A model generated the notes under the pieces. That model made no database searches. It saw only the letters and a list, made by a program, of their open reading frames with translations, and was not told where the DNA came from. The position numbers and the translations under genes were made by a program. DNA of 64,000 bases. It comes from an uncultured bacterium (GTDB lineage: Bacteria > Schekmanbacteria > GWA2-38-11 > J061). Below are positions 2,875-64,000 of this stretch, piece by piece (the stretch's first letter is position 1; each line of letters begins with the position of its first letter). The stretch spans positions 5,217 to 69,216 of the forward strand of contig CAZJVM010000001.1 in NCBI GenBank assembly GCA_964549305.1. The letters are read 5' to 3'.

Positions 2875-3744
2875 CTAATGAATTTGATTGATGTAATCTT
2901 CAATGAGACTGCGGTTTTCAGGAGATATTCTCGAGATGTTTATCCCGGTTGAGTATTTTATTACATCACCTTCGGGAACCTCTATGCATCTGCACACCTT
3001 TCCGTCAATGTAAATGACTTTGTCGTTAATCATGAGATTTACTCCAACGTGGTCATTGGGTTTCAACGGATAAATATGCCGAAGAAGAAGTCCGCTGAGA
3101 CTTATATCCGTTACTTCCGCTTTTTCCTTGTTTTCTTCCATATTTTCCTTGTTTAGACTGTTGCAGTAAGCAAAGGTATTTACGCTGTAACGGGGATAAC
3201 GTCTTTTTTCGAGATATGAGTGTGTCATGGAAATCAATTCCATAAACCTGTCGGGAGAATTGATGGAAAGAAAACCGTCGATGAATGCACTGTTTTTAAG
3301 AAGATTGTTCCAGTAAAGATTCAGTTTTTCTTTTTCAACATCATTCTTTCCGTCTTTTTGAAAAGCTTCCACCGAGTGAAATAACATTACACAGATAACT
3401 TTAATGCCCGCACTTCCCTCGATACCCAAATCAATCTTTTTCTTTAAACGACCAATGAAAAGAAGTGAGTTAGAAATGTAAAGAAAAGGGCAGTAATTAA
3501 TAGTAAAGGGAAAAACTCCGTTCTTCAGGAAGTCTGACGCGTCCCTGAGAAGCGATTCCTTCATCTTTCCCCATTGTTTGGAAAGAAGCGCGAATTCTCT
3601 TCTCGCTGCCTGAGAGTTGCATACTTTATCAGATGATGAAAGCTTGCCTGATATTTCGAGGAATAAGTCTTTTATATTGTCTGACTCAAGATCAAGGTCG
3701 ACAATATCGGGGAGATACTCTTTGAATTCCTCTTTTATAGCCAT
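2875..3744 (-). CDS. PilZ-domain (c-di-GMP binding) protein with an uncharacterised N-terminal domain
   Basis: The C-terminal region carries both PilZ signature motifs: RxxxR (EKRRYPRYSV) and D/NxSxxG (DISLSGLLL). The N-terminal ~190 aa have no motif I recognise. Confidence 0.55.
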   Translation of the reverse strand: MAIKEEFKEYLPDIVDLDLESDNIKDLFLEISGKLSSSDKVCNSQAARREFALLSKQWGKMKESLLRDASDFLKNGVFPFTINYCPFLYISNSLLFIGRLKKKIDLGIEGSAGIKVICVMLFHSVEAFQKDGKNDVEKEKLNLYWNNLLKNSAFIDGFLSINSPDRFMELISMTHSYLEKRRYPRYSVNTFAYCNSLNKENMEENKEKAEVTDISLSGLLLRHIYPLKPNDHVGVNLMINDKVIYIDGKVCRCIEVPEGDVIKYSTGINISRISPENRSLIEDYINQIH

Positions 3745-15544: not shown

Positions 15545-16390
15545 TTGCTTAAAAATATGCCATCAAAAAAGATAATCAGTATTACAAGCGGAAAAGGAGG
15601 AGTCGGGAAAAGTACGCTTGTTTTTAACATTGCGTTGTCACTTAATAAACAGGGCGCCAATGTACTTGTTCTTGACGCGGATCTTTCCCTTGGAAATATG
15701 GACCTCTTTGCAGGAGTTAAACCTCTTTTTACGCTAAAAGATGTTTTTGATGGAAACAGAAGTCTTGATGATGTGGTAATAGAGGTTAAAAAGGGGTTGA
15801 AAATTATCCCCACTTCCTCCGGAGATGAAACACTTTGCAATCTTTCGGACAAGCAGGAGATAAATCTTGTTTCCGCTTTTGATAACCTGAAATCATCCTT
15901 TGATATTCTTCTCATAGATACGGATGCGGGTATCTCCGCAAATGTAATATATTTTTCGACAATATCTCAGGAAATTGTTCTTGTCATAACTCCTGATCCG
16001 GCATCGCTTCATGATTCTCTCGCGCTGATTAACCTTCTTTCGAATAAGTACGGAGAAAAATCTTTTAATGTCGTTGTTAACTGTGTGCGCACCAAAGAGG
16101 AGATGGGAAGCGTTTTTTCATCTTTCAGCAATATGGTGGACAAGGAAAACTGCAACGTGCGCCTGAACTATATGGGGGCTGTTCATTTTGACAATAAAAT
16201 GGTCGAGGCCGTCAAAAAACAATCGGCGGTGAGTGAGCTTTATCCCAAGTCCTTGTCGTCAAAAGATATTAAAAAAATCGCCGCAACGATAATGGCAATG
16301 CCTTCACAACCATTTCCAAAGGGAAATGTGCAGATTTTACTCGGAGATTTTTTGGAGCAAAGCAGAAACAAGGAAAAATATAACCTTTAA
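15545..16390 (+). CDS. flhG: MinD/ParA-family ATPase, FlhG (FleN)-like flagellar number regulator
   Basis: Deviant Walker A (SGKGGVGKST). A MinD-like protein immediately upstream of fliA, as in flhF-flhG-fliA loci. Confidence 0.7.
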   Translation: MLKNMPSKKIISITSGKGGVGKSTLVFNIALSLNKQGANVLVLDADLSLGNMDLFAGVKPLFTLKDVFDGNRSLDDVVIEVKKGLKIIPTSSGDETLCNLSDKQEINLVSAFDNLKSSFDILLIDTDAGISANVIYFSTISQEIVLVITPDPASLHDSLALINLLSNKYGEKSFNVVVNCVRTKEEMGSVFSSFSNMVDKENCNVRLNYMGAVHFDNKMVEAVKKQSAVSELYPKSLSSKDIKKIAATIMAMPSQPFPKGNVQILLGDFLEQSRNKEKYNL

Positions 16391-16405
16391 AAAGGGTATG
16401 GTACA

Positions 16406-17218
16406 ATGAAAAAAGTTATTTTAAAAAGGAAGTCGCGACGCAAAACGCTTAACAGTAAATTAGTAAACAGAGAAGAATTAATCGTTCAGTATTTGCCGCT
16501 AACGCGCTCGATTGCGGAAAGAATATCCACGAGACTCCCTAATAATGTTGAAATCGACGAGCTTGTTGCAGCCGGCATAATGGGATTGATGGATGCGGCA
16601 GACAAGTTTGACCCTTCCAAGCAGATTAAATTCAAAACATACGCCGAATTCAGGATAAGGGGCGCCATACTTGACGAACTGCGCGCGATGGACTGGCTTC
16701 CCAGGTCCCTGAGAAGAAAAACTTCCCAAATTGACAATGCCCGTTTCACTTTAGAACAGCAATTGGGGAGACACGCTACGGATAAAGAGGTCGCGGAGCA
16801 TATGAACATAGACATCGAAGAATTATATGATATGATAAACAGCGTAAAAGGAAAATCTCTTCTTTCTCTGGATGAACCGATAGACGGAGATTCAAAAAGC
16901 AGAACACTTCTTGAATGCCTTGTAAGCAAAGATTCTCAGGACCCGCATTCACTTGCAAGCTTAAAAGAAATGAAGGAGATGATAGCAAAGGCAATTGACC
17001 TTCTTCCGGAAAAGGAAAGGCTTGTAATTTCGCTTTACTACTATGAAGAACTGACTATGAAAGAAATAGGGCAGATTATGAATGTTACGGAGTCAAGAGT
17101 GTCACAGATTCACACAAAAGCCGCGATGTCGCTAAAATCGAAGCTTAAAAAAGTATCAAAAGAAAAATCGGTTCCTTCTTTTAAAACAACTGAATCCGCT
17201 TTCGGGAATTCAATATAA
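16406..17218 (+). CDS. fliA: RNA polymerase sigma factor sigma-28 (FliA/WhiG family)
   Basis: Sigma-70 region 2 (YAEFRIRGAILDELR), region 3 and region 4 (ISLYYYEELTMKEIGQIMNVTESRVSQIH) are present. Length is 270 aa. Confidence 0.85.
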   Translation: MKKVILKRKSRRKTLNSKLVNREELIVQYLPLTRSIAERISTRLPNNVEIDELVAAGIMGLMDAADKFDPSKQIKFKTYAEFRIRGAILDELRAMDWLPRSLRRKTSQIDNARFTLEQQLGRHATDKEVAEHMNIDIEELYDMINSVKGKSLLSLDEPIDGDSKSRTLLECLVSKDSQDPHSLASLKEMKEMIAKAIDLLPEKERLVISLYYYEELTMKEIGQIMNVTESRVSQIHTKAAMSLKSKLKKVSKEKSVPSFKTTESAFGNSI

Positions 17219-56978: not shown

Positions 56979-57341
56979 AAAGAATGAAGTTTATGGCAAC
57001 AGAGTATAATGACTGAAAGTGCAAGTTGTCAATAATCATAAAAATAAAAACCGGGCAAACAATTTGTAGCTTATAAAAGCATCAGAGGGTGTCAGGAAGA
57101 AAGCATATTCTATATCAATCATTTGTTGCTCACAGCGACGATAAATGGTTTGTAAATACAGCAGGTTAGCTATCATTGCTATGTCCTTTAAATGATTGTT
57201 TGCTATGCTATCTAATTGATTTATCAATAAATAAATTGTTTTTTCGCGGTAAAAAAAATATTTTATTGGATATGAGATTAAAGGTTTTTAAGGAAAGTGG
57301 CGACAATATATGGTATAAATGCTGCTAATGGGGGAGGTGGC

Positions 57342-57788
57342 ATGAAAAAAATATCGCTTAAAAAATCTGAAGACGCGTTTACACTTGTAGAAATTCTTGT
57401 TGCCATAGTAATCCTTTCTGTAGGACTTCTCTCAATAGCAAGTTTGGTTACAACTGTTATCAGGGGTAACGCAAAGAGCAGGCGAATGACTACGGCAATA
57501 ACTCTTGCGCAAACGAAAATAGAAGAGTTGAAAAATCTGGATTATGACGATAGCAAACTCGAAGATTCAAATACGGGCAACAATTCAAGCCTTACAAGCA
57601 CATCATCCACTGACCACAGCGAAGCGGATATAGACGCGGAAGGGGGAACAGGGGGAATTTATACGAGAATATGGAATGTTGCCGATGACACTCCTTCAAC
57701 GAATATGAAAACTATTACGGTTATCATAAAGTGGGAAGAAAAGGGCAAGGAAAGAAAGACTGCGTTTACAACTATAATATCGGAATGA
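57342..57788 (+). CDS. pilV: Type IV pilus minor pilin, PilV-like (prepilin-type N-terminal domain)
   Basis: MKKISLKKSEDA|FTLVEILVAIVILSVGLLSIASL: class III signal with Glu at +5, PilV-like (compare Pseudomonas PilV ...GFSMIEVLVALLVLAIGVLGLASL). A strong GGGGGAGG Shine-Dalgarno lies upstream. Ala rather than Gly at -1 is atypical. Confidence 0.6.
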   Translation: MKKISLKKSEDAFTLVEILVAIVILSVGLLSIASLVTTVIRGNAKSRRMTTAITLAQTKIEELKNLDYDDSKLEDSNTGNNSSLTSTSSTDHSEADIDAEGGTGGIYTRIWNVADDTPSTNMKTITVIIKWEEKGKERKTAFTTIISE

Positions 57789-57797
57789 GGATGAAAA

Positions 57798-58703
57798 GTG
57801 CGCGTGAAAAATAACAGGAATGGATTTACGCTTATAGAGTTGATGGTGTCGATACTTCTCGCATCTATACTTATGGTTACATTTTATACTCTTCTTACCA
57901 GTCAGCAGAGAACATACAACAGTCAGGATTTGATTGTTGAAATGCAGCAAAATGTGAGGACGGCAATGGATACTTTGACGAGGGAATTCAGGTCAATCGG
58001 ATACGGAGTGCCTACTGCCGACACCCCTTCGGAAATTGCCGTTATAAGCAGCGCGACGGAAAACACCATAACCTTTCTCGTTGACCTTGATAATGTGAAG
58101 GCGACACTTACTGCCGACTACACGGCAGGAAATACTACTCTTTCCGTTGACACGGTGTCGGAGACATCTTCCGACAGTTATTATGGCAATTTTTCCGCAG
58201 GTGATACAATATATATAACTGACGGAAGCAAGTGGGAAGCCACTGACGTGTCATCTACTTCCCAGGGGAGTTTGGGTATCGGGGCTTTAACCAATGATTT
58301 TTCCCAGGGGTCGGTGCTTCACGTAATCAACACAATTACGTATGCCCAGAATCCATCCGACCACAAACATTCGACTGATGCGCCAACCATTAAATTGACG
58401 CGGTCTGTTGACGGAAGCACGGCACAACCGGTAGTCGATGACATTGATTATCTTGAATTCAAATACTATGATGATTCGGACAGTCAGGTCGGTTCAGCGA
58501 CTCCATACAAGAGTGTAAGTTTATCTTCCGGTGATGTAGGCGACGTAAGGAAAATAAAAGTTCTTTTTATCGCGCGAACATCGAGAGAAGATCCAAGCTA
58601 CTCGAGTTCCGGGGTCTATAACTGCGGCGACAAATACAGCGACCAATATCACAGATTAACACTGGAATCGGAAATAAAATTAAGAAATGCAGGATTGGAA
58701 TGA
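57798..58703 (+). CDS. pilW: Type IV pilus minor pilin, PilW-like
   Basis: MRVKNNRNG|FTLIELMVSILLASILMV is a canonical prepilin leader and methylation motif. PilW-like length (301 aa) and position after pilV. GTG start. Confidence 0.65.
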   Translation: MRVKNNRNGFTLIELMVSILLASILMVTFYTLLTSQQRTYNSQDLIVEMQQNVRTAMDTLTREFRSIGYGVPTADTPSEIAVISSATENTITFLVDLDNVKATLTADYTAGNTTLSVDTVSETSSDSYYGNFSAGDTIYITDGSKWEATDVSSTSQGSLGIGALTNDFSQGSVLHVINTITYAQNPSDHKHSTDAPTIKLTRSVDGSTAQPVVDDIDYLEFKYYDDSDSQVGSATPYKSVSLSSGDVGDVRKIKVLFIARTSREDPSYSSSGVYNCGDKYSDQYHRLTLESEIKLRNAGLE

Positions 58704-58704
58704 T

Positions 58705-59766
58705 ATGAAAAATAACAAAATGTTAAGCAATGAGTCGGGATTTGTCCTTGCACTTGCAATGTTTCTTCTTGCTATTCTCACTGTGATCGGTCTCGGCGCG
58801 ATTTTGATTACATCGACAGAGCTTAAGATATCGGGGAATCTCAGAACTGCTACCGATGCCCTGTATGTGGCAGAGGGAGGTATGGAAATTACTGAAGGAA
58901 AATTGAAGGCAAACGCAGTGAGCAATTTTGCAGGAACAAGCGGGACAACAAGCAATACGCAGATTTATGTCGTAGGAAAATCACCTAAAAACACCATTAA
59001 AAATCCTTTAAACTGGGTTGACACAAGCTGGTATATAGATTCGGATATGACCACGCCCCTGTCCGAGGGCAATGCGGAAACCGTGACTGCTCTTTATAAC
59101 AAATATACTATTGGTTCCGGGGAAGCCAATATTACACTGCCAAGACCTCAGTGGTTGTGGGTAAATCCCACGATTGTGGCGTTCAGAAACGTCAGGTCCA
59201 CATTCTCGGGAACAAATGCCAAAAAAGTGGAAGCGGATATTGAAATAAGATTTGAAAATAATCTCCTTTCCTTTCAGGTGTTCAAAGACCCTTCTGACGG
59301 TGTATCCGATGTTGACAATATTTCCAACAACAATGTTATAATAGGAGGTACAGGTTATGATTTTGGAATCGATCCTGCATTAAGCAAGATTACGGGAATT
59401 TGCACGAACGATAACAGTACGAAAGCTATTATAATTTATAGGGATGGGGACAACAATTTAGCGACTTCAGACTGGACAATAGTCGGAGAACCGGAGATTA
59501 ACACGACTAACAGTACATTTTGCCTCAGCAATGCGAGAGGTTACAGATATACAGCTTTGGGTGGTGCCGGGTCAAAAGAACCGGTAGCGGTTTTAAGCGC
59601 AAGCGAATATATTCCCGATACTACGGGCGCGCCTGTTTTGTCAATCAGTAACGGGGAAATTTACAAGGTTGAACTTGTCGATATATCTATGCTTTCACGA
59701 AGTGCCGGAAATCCGGCGGGTTCATCGGCAGGAAGCTGGGTGTCGAATACTTATAATCAATGGTAA
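58705..59766 (+). CDS. pilX: Type IV pilus minor pilin, PilX-like (PilX_N domain)
   Basis: ESGFVLALAMFLLAILTVIGLGAILITSTELKISGN matches the PilX N-terminal domain consensus (QRGxALxVALxxLLxLTLLGxxAxxxxxLxExMAGN). The start was moved to the ATG after the pilW stop. Confidence 0.6.
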   Translation: MKNNKMLSNESGFVLALAMFLLAILTVIGLGAILITSTELKISGNLRTATDALYVAEGGMEITEGKLKANAVSNFAGTSGTTSNTQIYVVGKSPKNTIKNPLNWVDTSWYIDSDMTTPLSEGNAETVTALYNKYTIGSGEANITLPRPQWLWVNPTIVAFRNVRSTFSGTNAKKVEADIEIRFENNLLSFQVFKDPSDGVSDVDNISNNNVIIGGTGYDFGIDPALSKITGICTNDNSTKAIIIYRDGDNNLATSDWTIVGEPEINTTNSTFCLSNARGYRYTALGGAGSKEPVAVLSASEYIPDTTGAPVLSISNGEIYKVELVDISMLSRSAGNPAGSSAGSWVSNTYNQW

Positions 59767-59790
59767 ACAAAAATATTAAAGGAGAATAAA

Positions 59791-59988
59791 ATGTTTAAAA
59801 ATCTGATTTGGGTTTTAATGACTTTTCTGGCATTAGCGGTTGTAATAACCTTTTCAACAGTGACAACGCGTGCCGATTCTGATACAAATTCAGCGAGTAA
59901 TATGAATGCTCCGGTAAACGGCGCGCAGGGGACAGGCACCAATGCCGAGCCGAACTCGACAATAAAAAACTGGCACGAAGTAAATTAA
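59791..59988 (+). CDS. Small secreted peptide precursor, paralog A (signal peptide, N/S/T/G-rich core, conserved C-terminal STIKNWHEVN)
   Basis: 65 aa. AAAGGAG Shine-Dalgarno 6 nt upstream. Sec-type signal peptide (MFKNLIWVLMTFLALAVVITFSTVTTRA). The mature part is ~37 aa. Confidence 0.6.
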   Translation: MFKNLIWVLMTFLALAVVITFSTVTTRADSDTNSASNMNAPVNGAQGTGTNAEPNSTIKNWHEVN

Positions 59989-60031
59989 TGATGTATTTGT
60001 ATAAATAAGATATATAAGAACGGAGGTTAAA

Positions 60032-60214
60032 ATGGCAAAAATAGTTAAAATGGTTTTGATATTACTCGTGTCAGGATTGATGAGCGCAACATTTACATTT
60101 GCAGTTACCACAAATTCAGACAGCAACTCAAACGCGAATGTTAATGGAGGAGGCGGACAGACTCAGCCATTTACGCCTTCTACTACAATAAAGAACTGGC
60201 ACGAAGTCAAATAA
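60032..60214 (+). CDS. Small secreted peptide precursor, paralog B (conserved C-terminal TTIKNWHEVK)
   Basis: 60 aa. GGAGG Shine-Dalgarno 5 nt upstream. Signal peptide (MAKIVKMVLILLVSGLMSATFTFAVTT). It shares with paralog A the pattern TF(S/T)xAVTTx(A/S)DSxxN...(S/T)TIKNWHEV(N/K). Confidence 0.6.
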   Translation: MAKIVKMVLILLVSGLMSATFTFAVTTNSDSNSNANVNGGGGQTQPFTPSTTIKNWHEVK

Positions 60215-60317
60215 TTCAAATATTCCTGCATACATATAAGTAAATTTTACGTTGCGGACTGTCACTATAGTTGATTATCCCAACCGTTCACTTATTGTTC
60301 AGGCAGAGAGTCTAATA

Positions 60318-61238
60318 TTGAAGAAATTCCTTTTTCTTTTATTTCTTGTCATAGTCACGGCATTTTCAGGGTGTCACCGCATAAGCGATAATGAGCTTAG
60401 TGACGTGGAGTCCGCAATAGAGTCAAAAGATTACAATCGTGCTTTGACAACTCTTTCACAACTCGCGGAAAAATATAAGGGAGATGCAATTGTCCATTAT
60501 CTTTCGGGATACTGCTTTTTAAAAAAAGAAGACAACGAAGCGGCACTCAAAGCATTCAAAAGGACTTTTGATATAAGAAAAAATTACTCCGCAATGGTAG
60601 GTGATGTTGATGTGGCGAATTTTCTCGCCGGAAACAGTTTGTCGGCGGAAAACCCTTTCTTCAAGGGAGCGATGAGAGAACTCGATACGATTATAAGCAA
60701 AAACAGCGGGGGCGAAACGGAAGAAAGAATTCGCTATCACAAGGCATCGCTTCTTCTTTTAAAAGACAAATATGATAAAGCAATCGATGAACTTGAAAAG
60801 ATAATTGAAAATAAAGTAGTGTCTCCTTATGATGCAAAAGCATATTTGAAAATTGGAGAAATCACCGCTCAATATTTACAAAATGAAGATAAGGGACTTA
60901 GTATTATCAGCGCGCTTATTGACAAATATCCCAATGACAGGGAAACTTTGGCAGAGTCAATGATTTGGATTGCAGAATATAAGATTAAACGCGCGAATAT
61001 GCTTAAAAAGAGGATCGAATCCCTCGAAGATTTTATCGAGTCATGGAAAGGGATAAAAGGGTTTCAGGAGGATATCAAAGAGGCAGTTGTGCAGATAGGG
61101 TCCGATAGTAAAAGCAGAAACAAATGTATTGCTGAAGCAAAGGAATATATTGATAAAATCAACAGGGAATATGCGGGAAGCAATTTTGCCGAAAGGACAA
61201 AAATGCTTTTAAGTGGCCTAAATGCAGTTAACCGGTAA
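60318..61238 (+). CDS. TPR-repeat lipoprotein
   Basis: TTG start, then LKKFLFLLFLVIVTAFSGC, a lipobox with Cys. TPR-like helical repeats fill the rest of the protein. Confidence 0.5.
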   Translation: MKKFLFLLFLVIVTAFSGCHRISDNELSDVESAIESKDYNRALTTLSQLAEKYKGDAIVHYLSGYCFLKKEDNEAALKAFKRTFDIRKNYSAMVGDVDVANFLAGNSLSAENPFFKGAMRELDTIISKNSGGETEERIRYHKASLLLLKDKYDKAIDELEKIIENKVVSPYDAKAYLKIGEITAQYLQNEDKGLSIISALIDKYPNDRETLAESMIWIAEYKIKRANMLKKRIESLEDFIESWKGIKGFQEDIKEAVVQIGSDSKSRNKCIAEAKEYIDKINREYAGSNFAERTKMLLSGLNAVNR

Positions 61239-62739
61239 AGGGTTCACTGTGAAAGATGCAAATCTGAAAACAAAAATCACAAAATACCTCCTTGTGGCAA
61301 TGACACTTCTTTTTCTTTTCTTTCTCCTGTTCAACATTCAGTATTCATATGAGGGGATAGTAGGTTACGACGGTTATTACCACATTAAAATAGCAAAAAA
61401 TATGGGAGAGAAAGGAGTTCTATCTCCCGATGCGTCGCTGATGTATCTTCCGGGAGGTGAGCAATTTGTTGACCATCACTACCTCTATCACATACTGCTT
61501 ATACCATTCACCTTTTCCAATCTCATTGACGGTGCCAAGAATTCGGCTATATTTTTTGATATGCTTCTGCTGATGGTTTTATCGTATATTTTGATAAAGC
61601 TTGATGTTAAAAATCCATATCTCTGGATTCTTGTACTCTTCTCTTTGTCTGAAACGTTTATCTTCAGGTTGTCTCTTCCGCGCGCAACTATACCTTCGCT
61701 AATAATCCTCATTTTAGCCTGGTATTTTATGATAAAGGAAAAATATATTCCTCTGGCAGGATTATCCTTACTTTTCCCGAGTTTCTACGGAGGATATACG
61801 GCGATTTTTATACCTCTCTCTGCTGTCATATGTTCTGTATATATAAGGAATAAACGATTTAATTACAAAGTGGTTATTGCTGTTATATCAGGTGTTACAT
61901 TAGGTAATATAATTAATCCTTTTTTTCCCGACAACCTGAAATTTATCTATCTTCAGACTACTTCTGCGGGACTTTTCAGAGTGGCAAGAGGTGGTTCGGA
62001 GTGGATGTCATTTGCGCCGGAAGAATTTATAAGGACGCAGTTTGCTTTTATCTTTCTTTTTTTGGTTACGCTTTATATTGCGGCAATTGACGACAAAAAG
62101 ATGAATAAGGAGGCATTGTCCCTTTTCTTTATCTCCCTTCCTTTGATTGCAATCAGTTTTTTCTGGCGAAGATTTATAGAATTGTCGGTGCCCTTTTCAT
62201 TGCTCTTTTCGGCAACGGTTTTCAGAGATTGCACTTTGGATAATATTACGGGATTTAGTAAGGGGGGTAAAAAAATATCGTCTGCTCTCGTGATATTCCT
62301 CACGGTCTTTTTCAGCGCGGGGAGTTATTATACGGCAAAATCGGCAACCGAGGAGATTAAATCGGATTTTCGTTCTCCCGGAAGGTACAGTCAGGGAGCA
62401 AAATGGATTTACGAAAATGCTCCGGGAATACCTGTGTATCTTACCGATTGGGATGACTATCCGGAACTCTATTTTTATAATTCCTTTAATAGGTATCTTA
62501 TAGGTCTTGACCCCGCGTTTCTCTATATTTATGATAAAGAAATGTATAAAATATGGATAGAAATTAATGCCGGAAAATATAAGGGCGATTTAAAGAAGGC
62601 GTTTACTGAAGTATTTAAAACCCCGCTAATATTTACTGACAATACTCACGGTGATTTTGTAAGATATAGTTCCGGATATGATTGGATTAAATTGCGATAC
62701 AGCGATTCCTATTGTAAAATATACAGCATTATTCCCTGA
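61222..62739 (+). CDS. Polytopic membrane protein with GT-C-like architecture (~11-12 TM helices plus ~130-aa C-terminal extracytoplasmic domain); putative glycosyltransferase
   Basis: The first loop after TM1 carries an acidic/aromatic motif (EGIVGYDGYYH). Many TM helices follow. The C-terminal soluble domain begins LTDWDDYPELYFY, reminiscent of the WWDYG motif position in STT3/PglB-type transferases. This was judged by eye only. Confidence 0.4.
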   Translation: MQLTGKGFTVKDANLKTKITKYLLVAMTLLFLFFLLFNIQYSYEGIVGYDGYYHIKIAKNMGEKGVLSPDASLMYLPGGEQFVDHHYLYHILLIPFTFSNLIDGAKNSAIFFDMLLLMVLSYILIKLDVKNPYLWILVLFSLSETFIFRLSLPRATIPSLIILILAWYFMIKEKYIPLAGLSLLFPSFYGGYTAIFIPLSAVICSVYIRNKRFNYKVVIAVISGVTLGNIINPFFPDNLKFIYLQTTSAGLFRVARGGSEWMSFAPEEFIRTQFAFIFLFLVTLYIAAIDDKKMNKEALSLFFISLPLIAISFFWRRFIELSVPFSLLFSATVFRDCTLDNITGFSKGGKKISSALVIFLTVFFSAGSYYTAKSATEEIKSDFRSPGRYSQGAKWIYENAPGIPVYLTDWDDYPELYFYNSFNRYLIGLDPAFLYIYDKEMYKIWIEINAGKYKGDLKKAFTEVFKTPLIFTDNTHGDFVRYSSGYDWIKLRYSDSYCKIYSIIP

Positions 62740-62763
62740 CTATGCCGTTACGGAGGAAATGAA

Positions 62764-63504
62764 ATGAGAAAGTGTCTTCTTTTAATTCTTGTGTTTGTAT
62801 TTATAAGCACTCTTCCCGCATTTGCCATTTATAAATGGACCGATTCAAATGGTGTCGTGCATTTTACGGATTATCCTCCCAAAAACAGCGACAAAGAATA
62901 CGAAGACGTGGATTTTAACAAAAACCTTTCTGATATGAACGATTCCTTCGGAGACGGACTCATAGGCAAAGGATGGATTCGTTTTAATATTGACAACTCC
63001 GATATTCTCGATGAATCAGGGGATTCGCTAACGATTAACGCTCCCGGGGACAGCGACATATGGTATGACAGGTTTGATGCTCCGGTTCTTTTCAAAAAAA
63101 TCAAGAAGGCAGACAAGAATTTTACGGTGGAAGTTAAGCTTCATTTTGAGACAAACGGTTCAGACAAGGGAGGGGTTGTCATCTGGACTGATAAAAGCGG
63201 CAAGGGAGATGTGGTACTTATCTGTAAATCAAAGGATGAGGATATCAATTTCAGAAGAATAATCGGTTCCGATTCGCAGAAGGGGACCGAACCTACCTAC
63301 GACAAGGAAAACGTGATATTCAGGTTAAGCAGGGAAGAGGATAGAATCAAAGGGTCATACAGCGAGGACGGAGGCGACTGGACTGACCTTGGCGAAGTCG
63401 ACTTCCCGATGGAAGGTCCTCTCAATATAGGTATTTTCGGTTGTTCGTGGAAATCCAATCCAGCGAAGATAATATTCGATTACTTTTCAGTGAGTGAGCA
63501 ATAG
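62764..63504 (+). CDS. Secreted DUF4124-domain protein with C-terminal concanavalin/LamG-like beta-sandwich region
   Basis: Signal peptide (MRKCLLLILVFVFISTLPAFA), then YKWTDSNGVVHFTDYPP, the DUF4124 signature. The C-terminal ~170 aa are beta-rich. Confidence 0.5.
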   Translation: MRKCLLLILVFVFISTLPAFAIYKWTDSNGVVHFTDYPPKNSDKEYEDVDFNKNLSDMNDSFGDGLIGKGWIRFNIDNSDILDESGDSLTINAPGDSDIWYDRFDAPVLFKKIKKADKNFTVEVKLHFETNGSDKGGVVIWTDKSGKGDVVLICKSKDEDINFRRIIGSDSQKGTEPTYDKENVIFRLSREEDRIKGSYSEDGGDWTDLGEVDFPMEGPLNIGIFGCSWKSNPAKIIFDYFSVSEQ

Positions 63505-63511
63505 AAAAGAA

Positions 63512-63976
63512 TCATTGCTCGTTTTGAACCTTTTTCGCAATTACAGCAAAAAATGGTTTTTGACTCTCATTACTTTCATACATACCTTCCGCTATATGAT
63601 ATCCTTTTCCGAGGACAACTGTTGTTTTAATATACTTCTTTTTCTTCGATAAACTTTTTGAAATTATTCTGCCGTCAACGGAAAGAGTGAAATTCCCCCT
63701 GGAAAAAATATAGAGGCGATAAGCGCCTTTTTCAGTTGTACGAATAATCGAATTGAACGTTGCCTGAGAAAAATCACCGATGCTTGCAATTAGCGGGAAT
63801 ATATTATTTCCAGTTTTCTCTTTTTCCGCGAAGGGGTTAAAAGATATTACAGTATTCTTCCAAATATCTTTTTGCTTACCGAAGAGGATAAAATCATTTT
63901 CCGTTGATTTGTCCAGACTTTTATAAATAGACAGAAGAGGGACACCGTTATGATTATTTGAAAAAACCGGTATCAT
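63512..63976 (-). CDS. Hypothetical protein (N-terminus may extend beyond the window end)
   Basis: 154-aa ORF from the first Met. The reading frame may continue upstream past position 64000. No motifs I recognise. Confidence 0.35.
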   Translation of the reverse strand: MIPVFSNNHNGVPLLSIYKSLDKSTENDFILFGKQKDIWKNTVISFNPFAEKEKTGNNIFPLIASIGDFSQATFNSIIRTTEKGAYRLYIFSRGNFTLSVDGRIISKSLSKKKKYIKTTVVLGKGYHIAEGMYESNESQKPFFAVIAKKVQNEQ

Positions 63977-64000
63977 CTGCTCCGTATAAAATTCCTCTTC

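What the first reader, a model, noticed from the sequence alone, without database searches (positions are those of the whole stretch)
57342..62739. Atypical minor-pilin locus: pilV-pilW-pilX without pilY1/pilE, followed by peptides, a TPR lipoprotein and a GT-C-like membrane protein
Canonical minor-pilin operons (fimU-pilVWXY1Y2E) carry the PilY1 adhesin and PilE. Here pilX is followed instead by two secreted peptides, a TPR lipoprotein and a 12-TM membrane protein with an extracytoplasmic C-terminal domain. Genes overlap or are tightly spaced (pilW/pilX 2 nt apart; TPR/GT-C overlap by 17 nt), which suggests a single transcription unit. The replacement of PilY1 by a different tip or accessory module is the best candidate in this window for an undescribed system.
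Basis: partly seen in the sequence, partly recalled or inferred. Interest (0 to 1): 0.65.

Follow-up and report, generated by a model that had tools for sequence, protein, structure and literature searches.

The report
Minor pilins linked to peptide glycosylation module
A conserved operon joins three pilus-tip (minor pilin) genes to two tiny secreted asparagine-rich peptides, a TPR lipoprotein and a previously unannotated STT3-like membrane glycosyltransferase, which suggests a pilus tip that carries a sugar-modified peptide instead of the usual PilY1 adhesin.

Summary
Window 57342-63504 (+) holds pilV-, pilW- and pilX-like genes, two signal-peptide ORFs (65 and 60 aa), a TPR lipoprotein, a 505-aa membrane protein and a lectin-like DUF4124/DUF1349 protein. 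The genes are tightly spaced or overlap.

The same cassette recurs in Schekmanbacteria-like, Nitrospinota and, without the TPR gene, Zetaproteobacteria contigs, at as little as 35-39% identity.

The membrane protein has no Pfam, NCBIfam or PDB sequence match. Its AlphaFold model (pLDDT 92) matches STT3, PglB and AglB oligosaccharyltransferases best. The family is large (2215 clusters at E<=1e-30). Across phyla it sits next to genes for exported proteins with Asn/Asp-rich tails (odds ratio 33).

The peptides share an invariant Asn and a C-terminal K-x-[FW]-[RH]-E tail. That tail occurs only where a PilX-like gene is adjacent (15 of 15 loci, none of about 75 others), in the gene position that pilY1 normally holds.

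Best reading (inferred): the GT-C enzyme glycosylates the peptides, and their tail docks on PilX as PilY1's last ~10 residues do. Lacking PilY1/PilE is not atypical in itself. No complex model or experiment supports the docking step. I found no description of the cassette. Interest 0.66.

The parts
56979..57341 (+). Upstream intergenic region between the divergent BrkB/YihY gene and pilV; presumed promoter region of the operon
   Evidence: 363-bp AT-rich gap, GC 0.34-0.35. Only weak sigma-70-like matches were found. The promoter was not established.
57342..57788 (+). PilV/GspI-like minor pilin (148 aa); class III signal KKSEDA|FTLVE with Glu+5 and Ala rather than Gly at -1
   Evidence: PF07963 N_methyl E 6e-7. 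TIGR02523 PilV gives 39.6 bits, below its 52.2 cut-off. Orthologues are present in L001-L004, L007, L008 and L011.
57798..58703 (+). PilW/GspJ-like minor pilin (301 aa, GTG start); NRNG|FTLIE with Glu+5
   Evidence: PF07963 E 2.8e-8. PF16074 PilW gives 25.1 bits against a cut-off of 26. Orthologues score E 1e-30 to 1e-154 in the cassette loci.
58705..59766 (+). PilX/GspK/PilK-like apical minor pilin (353 aa; an alternative ATG at 58687 gives 359 aa); SNESG|FVLAL lacks Glu+5; conserved extreme C-terminus W-V-S-N-T-Y-N-Q-W after a variable linker
   Evidence: PF14341 PilX_N gives 39.2 bits, above its 25.5 cut-off. Lack of Glu+5 is the PilK-family hallmark (PMC13533445). C-terminal conservation is seen in alignment A3. 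The AF2 model was too poor to use, pLDDT 48.7.
59791..59988 (+). Secreted peptide 1 (65 aa precursor). The predicted mature form is about 37 aa: DSDTNSASNMNAPVNGAQGTGTNAEPNSTIKNWHEVN. It is Asn-rich and ends in the K-x-W-H-E tail.
   Evidence: A Shine-Dalgarno sequence aaggag lies 7 nt upstream. It is identical to P0117. Alignment A2 shows invariant N, K and E. It occupies the syntenic position of pilY1 or mshQ.
60032..60214 (+). Secreted peptide 2 (60 aa precursor). The predicted mature form is about 36 aa: VTTNSDSNSNANVNGGGGQTQPFTPSTTIKNWHEVK.
   Evidence: A Shine-Dalgarno sequence ggagg precedes it. It is a paralogue of peptide 1, and both types are conserved in L001 and L002.
60318..61238 (+). 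TPR lipoprotein (306 aa from TTG 60318; the longest ORF starts at 60252). Signal MKKFLFLLFLVIVTAFSG|C.
   Evidence: TPR_6, TPR_19 and TPR_16 hits; the nearest NCBIfam models are YbgF and BamD, both below their cut-offs. The lipobox Cys is conserved in L001-L004. The gene overlaps the GT-C gene by 17 nt. Orthologues occur only in the Schekman-clade and Nitrospinota.
61222..62739 (+). STT3-like GT-C fold membrane glycosyltransferase of an unannotated family (505 aa). Conserved residues are D50-G-Y-Y-H54, D84-x-H86, R149, E260-W261, R316-R317-x-x-E320 and W410-D411-D412-x-P414.
   Evidence: No Pfam, NCBIfam or PDB sequence hit. AF2 gives pLDDT 92 and pTM 0.92. Foldseek PDB places STT3 first (E 6e-9, TM 0.72), then ALG12, DPY19, PglB, AglB and ArnT. 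Conservation comes from alignment A1. The family has 2215 clusters at E<=1e-30.
62764..63504 (+). Exported DUF4124 + DUF1349 (concanavalin-A-like) protein, 246 aa; probably the last gene of the operon
   Evidence: PF07081 E 7e-14, PF13511 E 1.6e-8, GH43_C2 E 6e-6. It starts 24 nt after the GT-C gene. It is conserved downstream of the GT-C gene in L087 and L090, where the genes overlap by 4 nt.

Best explanation
This is one conserved operon with two coupled modules.

Module 1 is a PilY1-less core minor-pilin set: PilV/GspI-type, PilW/GspJ-type and the apical Glu5-less PilX/GspK-type. Such a set primes and caps a type IV filament. The motor, secretin and major pilin are encoded elsewhere.

Module 2 is a periplasmic protein-glycosylation unit. 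It comprises an STT3-like GT-C enzyme that would use a polyprenol-linked sugar donor, a translationally coupled TPR lipoprotein (a possible acceptor-presenting or scaffold partner) and a ConA-like lectin-domain protein.

The two Sec-exported peptides, about 36 aa when mature, link the modules. Their Asn-rich part, with one invariant Asn in a [D/N]-x-N-[S/G/A] context, is the likely acceptor of the GT-C enzyme. Their conserved free C-terminus (I/M-K-x-F/W-R/H-E-x-x) is the likely handle that fixes them to PilX. The most probable mode is in-trans beta-strand addition, as shown for the last ~10 residues of PilC/PilY1. The result would be a filament tip that displays a small glycopeptide instead of a large adhesin.

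Shown: gene content, conserved synteny, the GT-C/STT3-like fold, the family-wide adjacency to Asn-rich tails, and the strict co-occurrence of tail motif and PilX.

Inferred: glycosylation of the peptides, the modified residue, the TPR role, docking on PilX, and tip display.
For: 1. The ordered cassette V-W-X-peptide(s)-TPR-GT-C is found in Schekman-clade loci (L001, L002, L087, L090 lacking pilV/W, L092) and in Nitrospinota (L003, L004, L007, L008, L011, L089, L091). GT-C identity is only 35-39% for the five Nitrospinota loci where it was reported. Zetaproteobacteria (L006, L040) have H-V-W-X, an Asn-rich protein and the GT-C gene, without TPR.
2. Genes overlap or lie 1-43 nt apart (66-103 nt before the TPR start, depending on the start chosen), and no terminator-like site lies in any intergenic gap.
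3. GT-C fold: the model has pLDDT 92, and STT3 gives E 6e-9 and TM 0.72. All 29 hits with E<=1e-3 are GT-C enzymes. The closest are protein-modifying: STT3, DPY19, PglB and AglB.
4. Conserved polar residues occur in the same order as the OST catalytic set listed in PMC7226087: D50, R149, E260, R316 and WDD410-412 against D56, R147, E319, R375 and WWD457-459. This is a sequence-order comparison only.
5. Across 86 loci, strictly Asn-rich ORFs make up 79 of 529 ORFs within 2.5 kb of the GT-C gene, against 4 of 750 farther away (odds ratio 33, p 4e-27). Their folded domains are unrelated (DUF5666, DUF5667, CHRD), so the tail is the shared feature.
6. The peptides share an invariant Asn, K and E (alignment A2). 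All carry signal peptides.
7. The [FWY][RH]E C-terminal tail occurs in the same 15 loci that hold a PilX-like ORF and in none of the ~75 others. It persists in Zetaproteobacteria, which lack TPR, and is absent where the GT-C gene lacks pilins. So it tracks PilX rather than TPR or the GT-C enzyme.
8. PilX lacks Glu+5. The peptide genes sit in the pilY1/mshQ position. [quoted passage not shown]
9. Flanks of L003, L004, L090, L091 and L092 carry GT1/GT2, PMT_2, epimerase and flippase-like genes, which are candidates for donor-sugar supply.
Against: - No complex model could be made.
- Schekman-clade PilX has its own conserved extreme C-terminus (W-V-S-N-T-Y-N-Q-W) after a variable linker. This looks like a cis strand donor of the GspK/ComZ type and would make a trans donor unnecessary in this window.
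- The tail is rich in charged residues (K, R/H, E), which is unexpected for a deeply buried strand.
- No N-x-S/T sequon is conserved in the peptides. Window peptide 2 has none, and the only N-x-S/T in peptide 1 (E-P-N-S-T) is outside the invariant-Asn column and has Pro at -1.
- The literal WWDYG and DxD motifs of OSTs are absent, and Pfam STT3 does not hit. The acceptor could therefore be Ser/Thr, a lipid or a glycan.
- The Schekman and Nitrospinota peptides mostly fall below my strict Asn-rich threshold. Window peptide 2 meets it by hand count but was lost in the ORF selection.
- Blastocatellia relatives have neither pilins nor Asn-rich neighbours.
- The three lineages give only three independent observations of the PilX-tail link.
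Confidence: 0.42

Rival explanations
1. The GT-C enzyme glycosylates the pilins themselves: the minor pilins here, or the major pilin encoded elsewhere. TfpW, TfpO/PilO, PglL and archaeal AglB do this for pilins. The peptides would then have another role, such as chaperone-like, regulatory or strand donor only.
For: Pilin glycosylation by membrane OTases encoded next to pilin genes is well known (the TfpW preprint, PMC9239064; AglB acts on pilins, PMC5131992). Window PilV has an Asn/Ser/Thr-rich loop (SNTGNNSSLTSTSST). In two Patescibacteria loci the GT-C gene lies beside a 541-749-aa pilin-like protein and, in L067, pilM/N/O-like genes.
Against: Most family members (Chloroflexota, Planctomycetes, Blastocatellia) have no pilin nearby. 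Their recurrent neighbours are Asn-rich tails. The PilV loop is not conserved in Nitrospinota PilV. The peptides carry the only invariant Asn found.
Confidence: 0.18
2. The minor pilins form a T2SS-like pseudopilus tip, or an EPS-type filament as in the cyanobacterial Hps system. It exports or organises the product of the glycosylation module, a glycopeptide or polysaccharide. The peptides would be cargo or primers that are released, not retained at a pilus tip.
For: The set is PilY1-less like GspIJK, and Nitrospinota and Zetaproteobacteria add a GspH-like gene. Polysaccharide genes flank the cassette (GT2, MurJ-like, Polysacc_synt, PMT_2, deacetylase). There are weak NCBIfam hits to HpsB and HpsC. 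Cyanobacterial PilX-EPS sets lie in the hps polysaccharide locus.
Against: The HpsB/HpsC scores are far below their cut-offs (26.6 against 150; 22.8 against 200). No secretin, ATPase or platform gene is seen in any flank. A strictly conserved free C-terminal tail that co-occurs with PilX argues for binding rather than mere export.
Confidence: 0.17
3. The peptides are minimal PilY1 surrogates only, acting as strand donors that license tip assembly. The TPR, GT-C and lectin genes act on other substrates, such as envelope glycans or Asn-rich proteins encoded elsewhere.
For: [quoted passage not shown] The tail tracks PilX. The window peptides are only moderately Asn-rich and lack a conserved sequon.
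Against: The peptide genes always lie between pilX and the TPR/GT-C genes. An Asn is invariant upstream of the tail. In Zetaproteobacteria the tail-bearing protein is itself strongly Asn-rich (NSN and DDN repeats) and lies directly beside the GT-C gene.
Confidence: 0.13
4. Ordinary adjacency: a standard minor-pilin operon happens to lie next to unrelated envelope genes, and the small ORFs are not expressed.
For: The small ORFs have no database family. Co-transcription was not shown, and the promoter scan is uninformative.
Against: Order and content are kept at 35-39% GT-C identity across phyla. The peptide ORFs have Shine-Dalgarno sites, signal peptides and a conserved C-terminal module in 19 database proteins. 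Stop/start overlaps link TPR to the GT-C gene, and the GT-C gene to DUF1349 in L090.
Confidence: 0.05

Closest known systems
T4aP tip/priming complex FimU-PilV-PilW-PilX-PilY1 (Neisseria PilH-I-J-K + PilC), with in-trans C-terminal beta-strand addition (Ellison et al., PNAS 2026, PMC13533445)
   Same: The I-J-K gene order is the same. PilV and PilW have Glu+5 and PilX lacks it. The gene directly after pilX encodes an exported protein whose conserved part is its extreme C-terminus.
   Different: There is no beta-propeller and no PilY1/PilC domain. The partner is a peptide of about 36 aa when mature (up to about 190 aa in Zetaproteobacteria), present in two paralogues. No pilE or fimU lies in this window. 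A TPR lipoprotein and a GT-C enzyme are co-encoded. Docking has not been shown.
T2SS pseudopilus tip GspH-I-J-K and other PilY1-less sets (Com pili, V. cholerae competence T4aP, Thermus ComZ, cyanobacterial PilX-Com/PilX-EPS)
   Same: These are PilY1-less core sets. The PilK homologue is enlarged (353 aa here) and may have a cis C-terminal strand after an insertion. The cyanobacterial PilX-EPS sets are linked to polysaccharide loci.
   Different: None of these is reported to have Asn-rich peptides, a TPR lipoprotein or an STT3-like enzyme in the operon. NCBIfam GspI/J/H and HpsB/C scores are all far below their cut-offs.
STT3/PglB/AglB oligosaccharyltransferases (CAZy GT66)
   Same: They are the best structural match. 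The architecture is inferred to be about 13 TM helices plus a C-terminal extracytoplasmic domain. There is a conserved acidic residue in the first external loop, and Arg, Glu, Arg and W-D-D follow in the same order as the OST catalytic residues. The neighbouring genes encode Asn-rich exported sequences.
   Different: There is no detectable sequence similarity (Pfam, NCBIfam, PDB). The protein is much shorter (505 aa against about 710 or more). DWDD[FY]P stands in place of WWDYG. No DxD motif was identified. The candidate acceptors lack a conserved N-x-S/T. Activity and donor are unknown.
Pilin glycosylation systems encoded next to pilin genes: TfpW (GT-C arabinosyltransferase, P. aeruginosa group IV), TfpO/PilO, PglL/PglS
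   Same: A membrane glycosyltransferase is encoded within a pilin locus and acts in the periplasm from lipid-linked donors.
   Different: Those enzymes sit beside the major pilin gene and modify the pilin itself. They belong to other families (Wzy_C-type O-OTases, or GT-C of the arabinosyltransferase type). Here the enzyme is STT3-like, sits beside minor pilins, and dedicated peptides are the likely acceptors.
TMTC1-4 / bacterial PMT_2-TPR fusions (GT-C enzymes with TPR acceptor-binding domains)
   Same: A GT-C catalytic membrane domain is combined with TPR repeats. Here they are two translationally coupled proteins.
   Different: In TMTC the TPR domain is fused to the enzyme, the GT-C domain is of the PMT/GT39-like clan, and the enzymes O-mannosylate cadherins. 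No homology was shown here.

Membership tests
Type IV filament core minor pilins (PilV/GspI, PilW/GspJ, PilX/GspK) | Class III (prepilin) signal with N-terminal methylation motif and hydrophobic alpha1-N helix | tested here: met
   PF07963 is above its cut-off for the PilV-like (29.2 bits against 21.2) and PilW-like (33.4 against 21.2) proteins. PF14341 PilX_N gives 39.2 against 25.5 for the PilX-like protein. PilV has Ala rather than Gly at -1.
Type IV filament core minor pilins (PilV/GspI, PilW/GspJ, PilX/GspK) | Glu at +5 in the I and J subunits and absent from the apical K/PilX subunit; syntenic I-J-K gene order | tested here: met
   The sequences are F-T-L-V-E (PilV), F-T-L-I-E (PilW) and F-V-L-A-L (PilX), in the order V-W-X. 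The criterion comes from PMC13533445.
Type IV filament core minor pilins (PilV/GspI, PilW/GspJ, PilX/GspK) | Subunit-specific family model above its curated cut-off | tested here: inconclusive
   TIGR02523 PilV gives 39.6 bits against 52.2, and PF16074 PilW gives 25.1 against 26. GspI/J/H, ComG and Hps models are all far below their cut-offs. Only PilX_N passes.
Type IV filament core minor pilins (PilV/GspI, PilW/GspJ, PilX/GspK) | Incorporation into a filament built by a PilB/PilC/PilMNOPQ (or Gsp) machine | not testable with these tools
   No machinery genes lie among the window ORFs scanned or in the 10-kb flanks of related loci. The rest of the genome is not available.
PilC/PilY1 tip adhesins | Large exported protein with the C-terminal PilY1/PilC beta-propeller domain | tested here: not met
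   The two ORFs after pilX are 65 and 60 aa and have no Pfam or NCBIfam hit. No PilY1-type hit was found in any window ORF scanned.
PilC/PilY1 tip adhesins | The extreme C-terminal ~10 residues add a beta-strand to PilK/PilX (a functional feature) | not testable with these tools
Indirect support: the tail and PilX co-occur in 15 of 15 loci against 0 of ~75.
STT3/PglB/AglB oligosaccharyltransferases (GT66) | GT-C fold with multi-pass TM domain and C-terminal extracytoplasmic domain, structurally superposable on STT3/PglB | tested here: met
   The AF2 model has pLDDT 92. Foldseek gives STT3 E 5.9e-9 and TM 0.72, PglB E 1.8e-6 and AglB E 3.2e-6.
STT3/PglB/AglB oligosaccharyltransferases (GT66) | Sequence membership (Pfam PF02516 STT3 or detectable similarity to solved OSTs) | tested here: not met
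   The window protein and all 39 family members gave no Pfam hit to STT3 at E<=1. A profile search of PDB sequences found nothing relevant. Two homologues carry an automated JGI 'Stt3' label.
STT3/PglB/AglB oligosaccharyltransferases (GT66) | Catalytic and recognition motifs: EL1 Asp (D56), R147, DxD/DxE/DxH, EL5 Glu (E319), R375, WWDYG, DK/MxxI (PMC7226087) | tested here: inconclusive
   Conserved D50, R149, E260, R316/R317 and W410-D411-D412 occur in the same order. The WWDYG motif is replaced by DWDD[FY]P. No DxD or DK/MxxI motif was identified. No residue-level structural superposition was available.
STT3/PglB/AglB oligosaccharyltransferases (GT66) | Acceptor sequon N-x-S/T (bacterial form D/E-x-N-x-S/T) | tested here: not met
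   In alignment A2 the invariant Asn has D/N at -2 and S/G/A at +1, but +2 is S/T in only 4 of the 13 aligned peptides. Window peptide 2 has no N-x-S/T at all.
Cyanobacterial Hps pseudopilin/polysaccharide system | HpsB/HpsC/HpsD pseudopilin equivalog models; HpsA-type PilX with beta-solenoid | tested here: not met
   NF038303 HpsB gives 26.6 bits against a cut-off of 150, and NF038304 HpsC gives 22.8 against 200. The PilX fold is unresolved.
Pilin O-oligosaccharyltransferases and TfpW | Wzy_C/O-antigen-ligase-type domain (TfpO, PglL), or an arabinosyltransferase-type GT-C next to the major pilin gene | tested here: not met
   There is no Wzy_C or PMT_2 Pfam hit. No major-pilin-like gene lies in the window; only two prepilin-motif ORFs were found. 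AftA/AftD and Emb rank below STT3 in the fold search.

The most novel reading that the evidence does not exclude
A new kind of type IV filament tip. In place of a PilY1-class adhesin, a dedicated peptide of about 36 aa is N-glycosylated (or otherwise glycosylated) on an Asn-rich stretch by a previously unrecognised, widespread bacterial STT3-like oligosaccharyltransferase family with a non-canonical sequon ([D/N]-x-N-[S/G/A], without the +2 Ser/Thr). The peptide is then locked onto PilX by in-trans beta-strand addition through its K-x-F/W-R/H-E tail, giving a glycan-tipped pilus. A corollary is that the same enzyme family glycosylates Asn/Asp-rich tails of lipoproteins and anti-sigma factors in Chloroflexota, Planctomycetota and other phyla. 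That would extend STT3-type protein glycosylation far beyond the Campylobacterota and Desulfobacterota.
Probability: 0.22. Interest if true: 0.88.

Novelty: new variant of a known kind. Interest (0 to 1): 0.66.

Why it matters
There are two separate points.

1. Tip assembly. Work published in 2026 showed that tip-complex assembly in type IV filaments is licensed by a ~10-residue C-terminal strand, supplied in cis by PilK/GspK or in trans by PilY1, PilC or MshQ. A natural system in which the trans partner is reduced to a short peptide would be the minimal form of that mechanism. It would make an easy model for studying licensing. It would also show that tips can be decorated with modular, post-translationally modified peptides.

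2. The membrane protein family. It is large (at least 2215 clusters at 50% identity, in more than 580 species genomes) and has no Pfam or NCBIfam model. Its fold is closest to the N-oligosaccharyltransferases. Its genomic partners are Asn-rich exported tails in several phyla that have no known N-glycosylation. If it is a protein glycosyltransferase, it opens a new bacterial glycosylation pathway, possibly with a new sequon. That would matter for envelope biology in Chloroflexota, Nitrospinota and Zetaproteobacteria, and for glyco-engineering.

Tried and rejected
- An exact-sequence look-up of the GT-C protein found nothing, although an identical cluster, P0001, exists.
- Profile search of PDB sequences with A1: no relevant hit.
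- Pfam scan of all 39 family members at E<=1: only scattered noise, no STT3 or PMT hit.
- Complex modelling: I tried to hand in the in-frame read-through pilX-linker-peptide1 (window:58687-59985).
- AF2 of PilX with only 7 close homologues gave pLDDT 48.7. It cannot be used to decide whether PilX supplies its own terminal strand.
- The word-indexed PilX homologue search returned only 8 proteins and missed the Nitrospinota orthologues.
- Natural fusions of the GT-C domain (N-terminal extra TM domain, C-terminal beta-rich domain) gave no Pfam hit and no functional clue.
- RiPP or bacteriocin reading of the peptides: rejected as the main reading. They have Sec-type signal peptides with A-x-A-like cleavage sites rather than leader peptides, and no RiPP maturase or ABC exporter is in the conserved cassette. 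One radical SAM/SPASM gene lies near L092 only.
- Known C-terminal sorting signals (PEP-CTERM, GlyGly-CTERM and similar): rejected. The tail has no TM segment, and no NCBIfam model hit it.
- Literature searches for this cassette or family found nothing.
- The promoter/terminator scan was uninformative: 32 promoter-like sites against 22 expected, and 6 terminators against 6.5 expected.

Full report
OBSERVATION

On the + strand they are as follows.

- A PilV-like prepilin, 57342-57788 (KKSEDA|FTLVE). N_methyl E 6e-7; TIGR02523 scores 39.6 bits, below its cut-off.
- A PilW-like prepilin, 57798-58703 (NRNG|FTLIE). N_methyl E 2.8e-8; PF16074 scores 25.1 bits against a cut-off of 26.
- A PilX_N protein, 58705/58687-59766. 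PF14341 scores 39.2 bits, above its cut-off.
- Two small ORFs, 59791-59988 and 60032-60214. Each has a Shine-Dalgarno site, a Sec-type signal peptide and the shared ending TIKNWHEV[NK].
- A TPR protein, 60252/60318-61238, with a lipobox.
- A 505-aa polytopic membrane protein, 61222-62739, overlapping the TPR gene by 17 nt.

An eighth gene follows after 24 nt. It encodes an exported DUF4124+DUF1349 (ConA-like) protein at 62764-63504, and it belongs to the unit in related loci.

Only these two ORFs in the whole window carry a prepilin motif. The part of the window I scanned is housekeeping: pur genes, pheST, pnp, mfd, uvrD and others. ORFs between 27344 and 36592 were not scanned. The closest named relatives are from Candidatus Schekmanbacteria. 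Contigs carrying the same genes, with indel differences, are in JGI metagenome 3300002231.

IS IT A UNIT?

Yes. The same ordered cassette (V, W, X, one or two peptides, TPR, membrane protein) occurs in these loci:

- Schekman-clade: Logan contig L001; Schekmanbacteria MAG contig L002; L092. L090 carries the X-to-DUF1349 part without pilV/pilW.
- Nitrospinota: L003, L004, L007, L008, L011, L089 and L091. An extra GspH/FimU-like gene precedes pilV in at least L003, L004, L089 and L091. L092 also has one.

Where identity was reported (five Nitrospinota loci), the membrane protein is only 35-39% identical to the window's.

Two Zetaproteobacteria loci (L006, L040) have GspH-, V-, W- and X-like genes. 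These are followed by a 197-213-aa strongly Asn-rich secreted protein and the membrane protein, without TPR.

Several loci are flanked by GT1/GT2, PMT_2, epimerase, deacetylase and flippase-like genes. No flank holds pilus motor, platform or secretin genes.

THE MEMBRANE PROTEIN

It has no Pfam, NCBIfam or PDB-sequence match, even when 39 family members are scanned at E<=1.

With a 39-sequence alignment (A1), AlphaFold2 gives pLDDT 92 and pTM 0.92. In Foldseek against the PDB, all 29 hits with E<=1e-3 are GT-C enzymes. STT3 of the human and yeast OST is first (E 6e-9, TM 0.72). ALG12, DPY19, PglB, AglB, ArnT and AftD/AftA follow.

The conserved polar residues are D50 (in GYDGYYH after TM1), D84-x-H86, R149, E260-W261, R316-R317-x-x-E320 and W410-D411-D412-x-P. 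D50, R149, E260, R316 and WDD stand in the same order as the OST residues D56, R147, E319, R375 and WWD listed in the review PMC7226087. This is a sequence-order comparison, not a superposition. The literal WWDYG and DxD motifs are not present.

The family is large: 5096 cluster representatives at E<=1e-3 and 2215 at E<=1e-30 among 1.84 billion. At least 583 species genomes carry it, mostly Anaerolineales, Blastocatellia, Nitrospinota, Zetaproteobacteria, Planctomycetota and Patescibacteria.

WHAT THE FAMILY'S NEIGHBOURS SAY

I clustered the ORFs within 5 kb of the gene in 87 loci. The commonest neighbour cluster has 69 ORFs in 48 loci, at positions -1 and +2. It consists of lipoproteins and anti-sigma-like membrane proteins whose only shared feature is a long Asn/Asp/Ser/Gly-rich C-terminal tail (for example DDNSNDDNGNDDNSNDD). 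An ECF sigma factor is the second commonest neighbour.

The folded parts of these proteins are unrelated: DUF5666, DUF5667 and CHRD. Planctomycetes, Zetaproteobacteria and other loci show the same pattern.

With a strict Asn-rich criterion, 79 of 529 ORFs within 2.5 kb qualify, against 4 of 750 farther away (odds ratio 33, p 4e-27). All these tails are predicted to be extracytoplasmic, where a GT-C active site faces.

I take this as good comparative evidence that the enzyme acts on Asn-rich exported segments. Blastocatellia relatives lack such neighbours. The Schekman and Nitrospinota peptides are only moderately Asn-rich (17-22% Asn in the mature window peptides).

THE PEPTIDES

A profile search found only 19 related proteins, all from the Schekman and Nitrospinota groups. 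There are short forms (48-65 aa) and long forms (102-114 aa, with an extra Cys-containing domain).

They share a C-terminal module: N-x-N-[S/G/A]-x-x-(F)-...-P-x-x-x-[I/M]-K-x-[F/W/Y]-[R/H]-E-x-x-COOH. One Asn, the Lys and the Glu are invariant in the 13-sequence alignment A2. The Zetaproteobacterial proteins end in ...PSSFREI[M/K]GQ.

An N-x-S/T sequon is not conserved. The invariant Asn has D or N at -2 and a small residue at +1.

Across the 91 loci held, a signal-peptide ORF ending in [FWY][RH]E occurs in exactly the 15 loci that also hold a PilX-like ORF, and in no other. The tail persists where TPR is absent (Zetaproteobacteria). It is absent where the GT-C gene occurs without pilins. It therefore tracks PilX.

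These 15 loci represent only three lineages, and four of them (L087-L090) were fetched through the peptide or PilX themselves.

LINK TO KNOWN PILUS BIOLOGY

Ellison et al. (PNAS 2026, PMC13533445) show the following.

- The last ~10 residues of PilC/PilY1 complete the beta-sheet of PilK/PilX in trans.
- This peptide is necessary and partly sufficient for pilus assembly.
- T2SS GspK, ComGG and CpaL supply the strand in cis.
- MshQ, encoded directly after the pilK homologue, is predicted to do the same as PilY1.
- PilK homologues lack Glu+5.

Here PilX lacks Glu+5, while PilV and PilW have it. The position directly after pilX is held by exported peptides conserved mainly at their extreme C-terminus. 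This makes 'minimal trans strand donor' the most economical reading of the tail.

The caveat is serious. Schekman-clade PilX has its own conserved extreme C-terminus (W-[VIT]-S-[NY]-x-x-x-[KQ]-W) after a linker of variable length (A3). That is the architecture of cis donors such as ComZ and the cyanobacterial PilX proteins. The PilX model was too poor to decide (pLDDT 48.7), and multimer modelling was not possible.

MECHANISM I COMMIT TO (confidence 0.42 for the whole chain)

1. The peptides are exported by Sec.
2. The STT3-like GT-C enzyme glycosylates their Asn-rich segment from a polyprenol-linked donor. The TPR lipoprotein is translationally coupled to the enzyme and probably forms a complex with it. 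I give about 0.55 to the step 'the peptides are acceptors of this enzyme'.
3. The C-terminal tail then binds the PilX-capped minor-pilin complex, probably by strand addition. I give about 0.4 to 'the tail binds PilX or the tip complex'.
4. The filament tip therefore carries a small glycopeptide. The ConA-like protein may bind the glycan.

The main alternatives are that the enzyme modifies the pilins themselves; that the pilins form a T2SS- or Hps-like pseudopilus that exports the glycoconjugate; and that the peptides act as strand donors only.

COMPARISON AND NOVELTY

Pilin-locus glycosyltransferases are also known (TfpW, TfpO, PglL, and AglB in archaea).

I could not find the following in the literature searches:

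- this cassette;
- the peptide family with its tail;
- an STT3-like enzyme family of this kind, or its association with Asn-rich tails.

I class the finding as a new variant of known kinds (type IV filament tip module; GT-C protein glycosylation). There is a realistic chance (about 0.2) that it is more than that: a glycan-tipped filament and a new widespread bacterial OST-like pathway.

Noticed in passing
L012-L083 (Anaerolineales/Chloroflexota loci), e.g. L013:9036-13562: In Chloroflexota the STT3-like gene sits in a recurrent four-gene arrangement: a lipoprotein with DUF5666 and an Asn/Asp-rich tail, the GT-C gene, an ECF sigma factor, and an anti-sigma-like DUF5667 protein with an Asn/Asp-rich tail. 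This suggests that the extracytoplasmic tail of an anti-sigma factor is modified by the enzyme.
   Followed up: partly
window 63512-64000 (-), continuing beyond the window end: This convergent gene is the C-terminal end of a longer membrane protein, at least 369 aa in L087, with a PA14-like ending and no Pfam hit. The equivalent gene in L090 is a PMT_2 GT-C with a weak PA14 hit. A second GT-C enzyme may therefore flank the operon.
   Followed up: partly
L067:173-7522 and L078:5644-9899 (Patescibacteria): The same GT-C family lies next to a 541-749-aa pilin-like protein (N_methyl plus BNR/beta-propeller repeats). In L067 it also lies near pilM/N/O-like genes and an ECF sigma factor. This is an independent link between the enzyme family and type IV pilus genes.
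   Followed up: no
L092:4768-5046: A GIY-YIG nuclease-domain ORF (92 aa) is inserted between the pilV-like and pilW-like genes of an otherwise intact cassette.
   Followed up: no
L004:3365-3706, L011:3631-4673, L091:10001-10665 (proteins P0119-P0130): The long-form peptides (102-114 aa) carry an extra conserved domain, KVTICH-x-GG-x-VTLNV-x-DGA-x-GHIPNH-x-D-x-G-x-C, with three Cys and several His. It has no Pfam match and might bind a metal.
   Followed up: no
L005:6746-9973, L042, L060 and other Blastocatellia loci: In Blastocatellia the GT-C gene is preceded by a conserved ~268-aa lipoprotein and a ~770-aa membrane protein with a long coiled-coil C-terminus. Neither has a Pfam hit. There are no pilins and no Asn-rich tails nearby.
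   Followed up: no
window 2875-3744 (-); 15545-17218 (+): A PilZ-domain protein (c-di-GMP receptor type) and a FlhG/MinD-like ATPase plus FliA-type sigma factor pair lie elsewhere in the window. They are the only other motility- or surface-related genes seen.
   Followed up: no
P0145, P0149, P0158 (N-terminal extensions); P0174, P0187, P0240 (C-terminal extensions): Some family members are fused to an extra N-terminal multi-TM domain (250-460 aa) or to a C-terminal beta-rich domain of about 150 aa (motif G-x-DY-x-E/F). None has a Pfam hit.
   Followed up: partly
L087 versus window 58319-64000: The JGI contig that carries the same genes differs by indels. Its DUF4124/DUF1349 gene is called as two fragments (83 and 98 aa). 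This reflects either strain variation or an assembly error in one of the two sequences.
   Followed up: no
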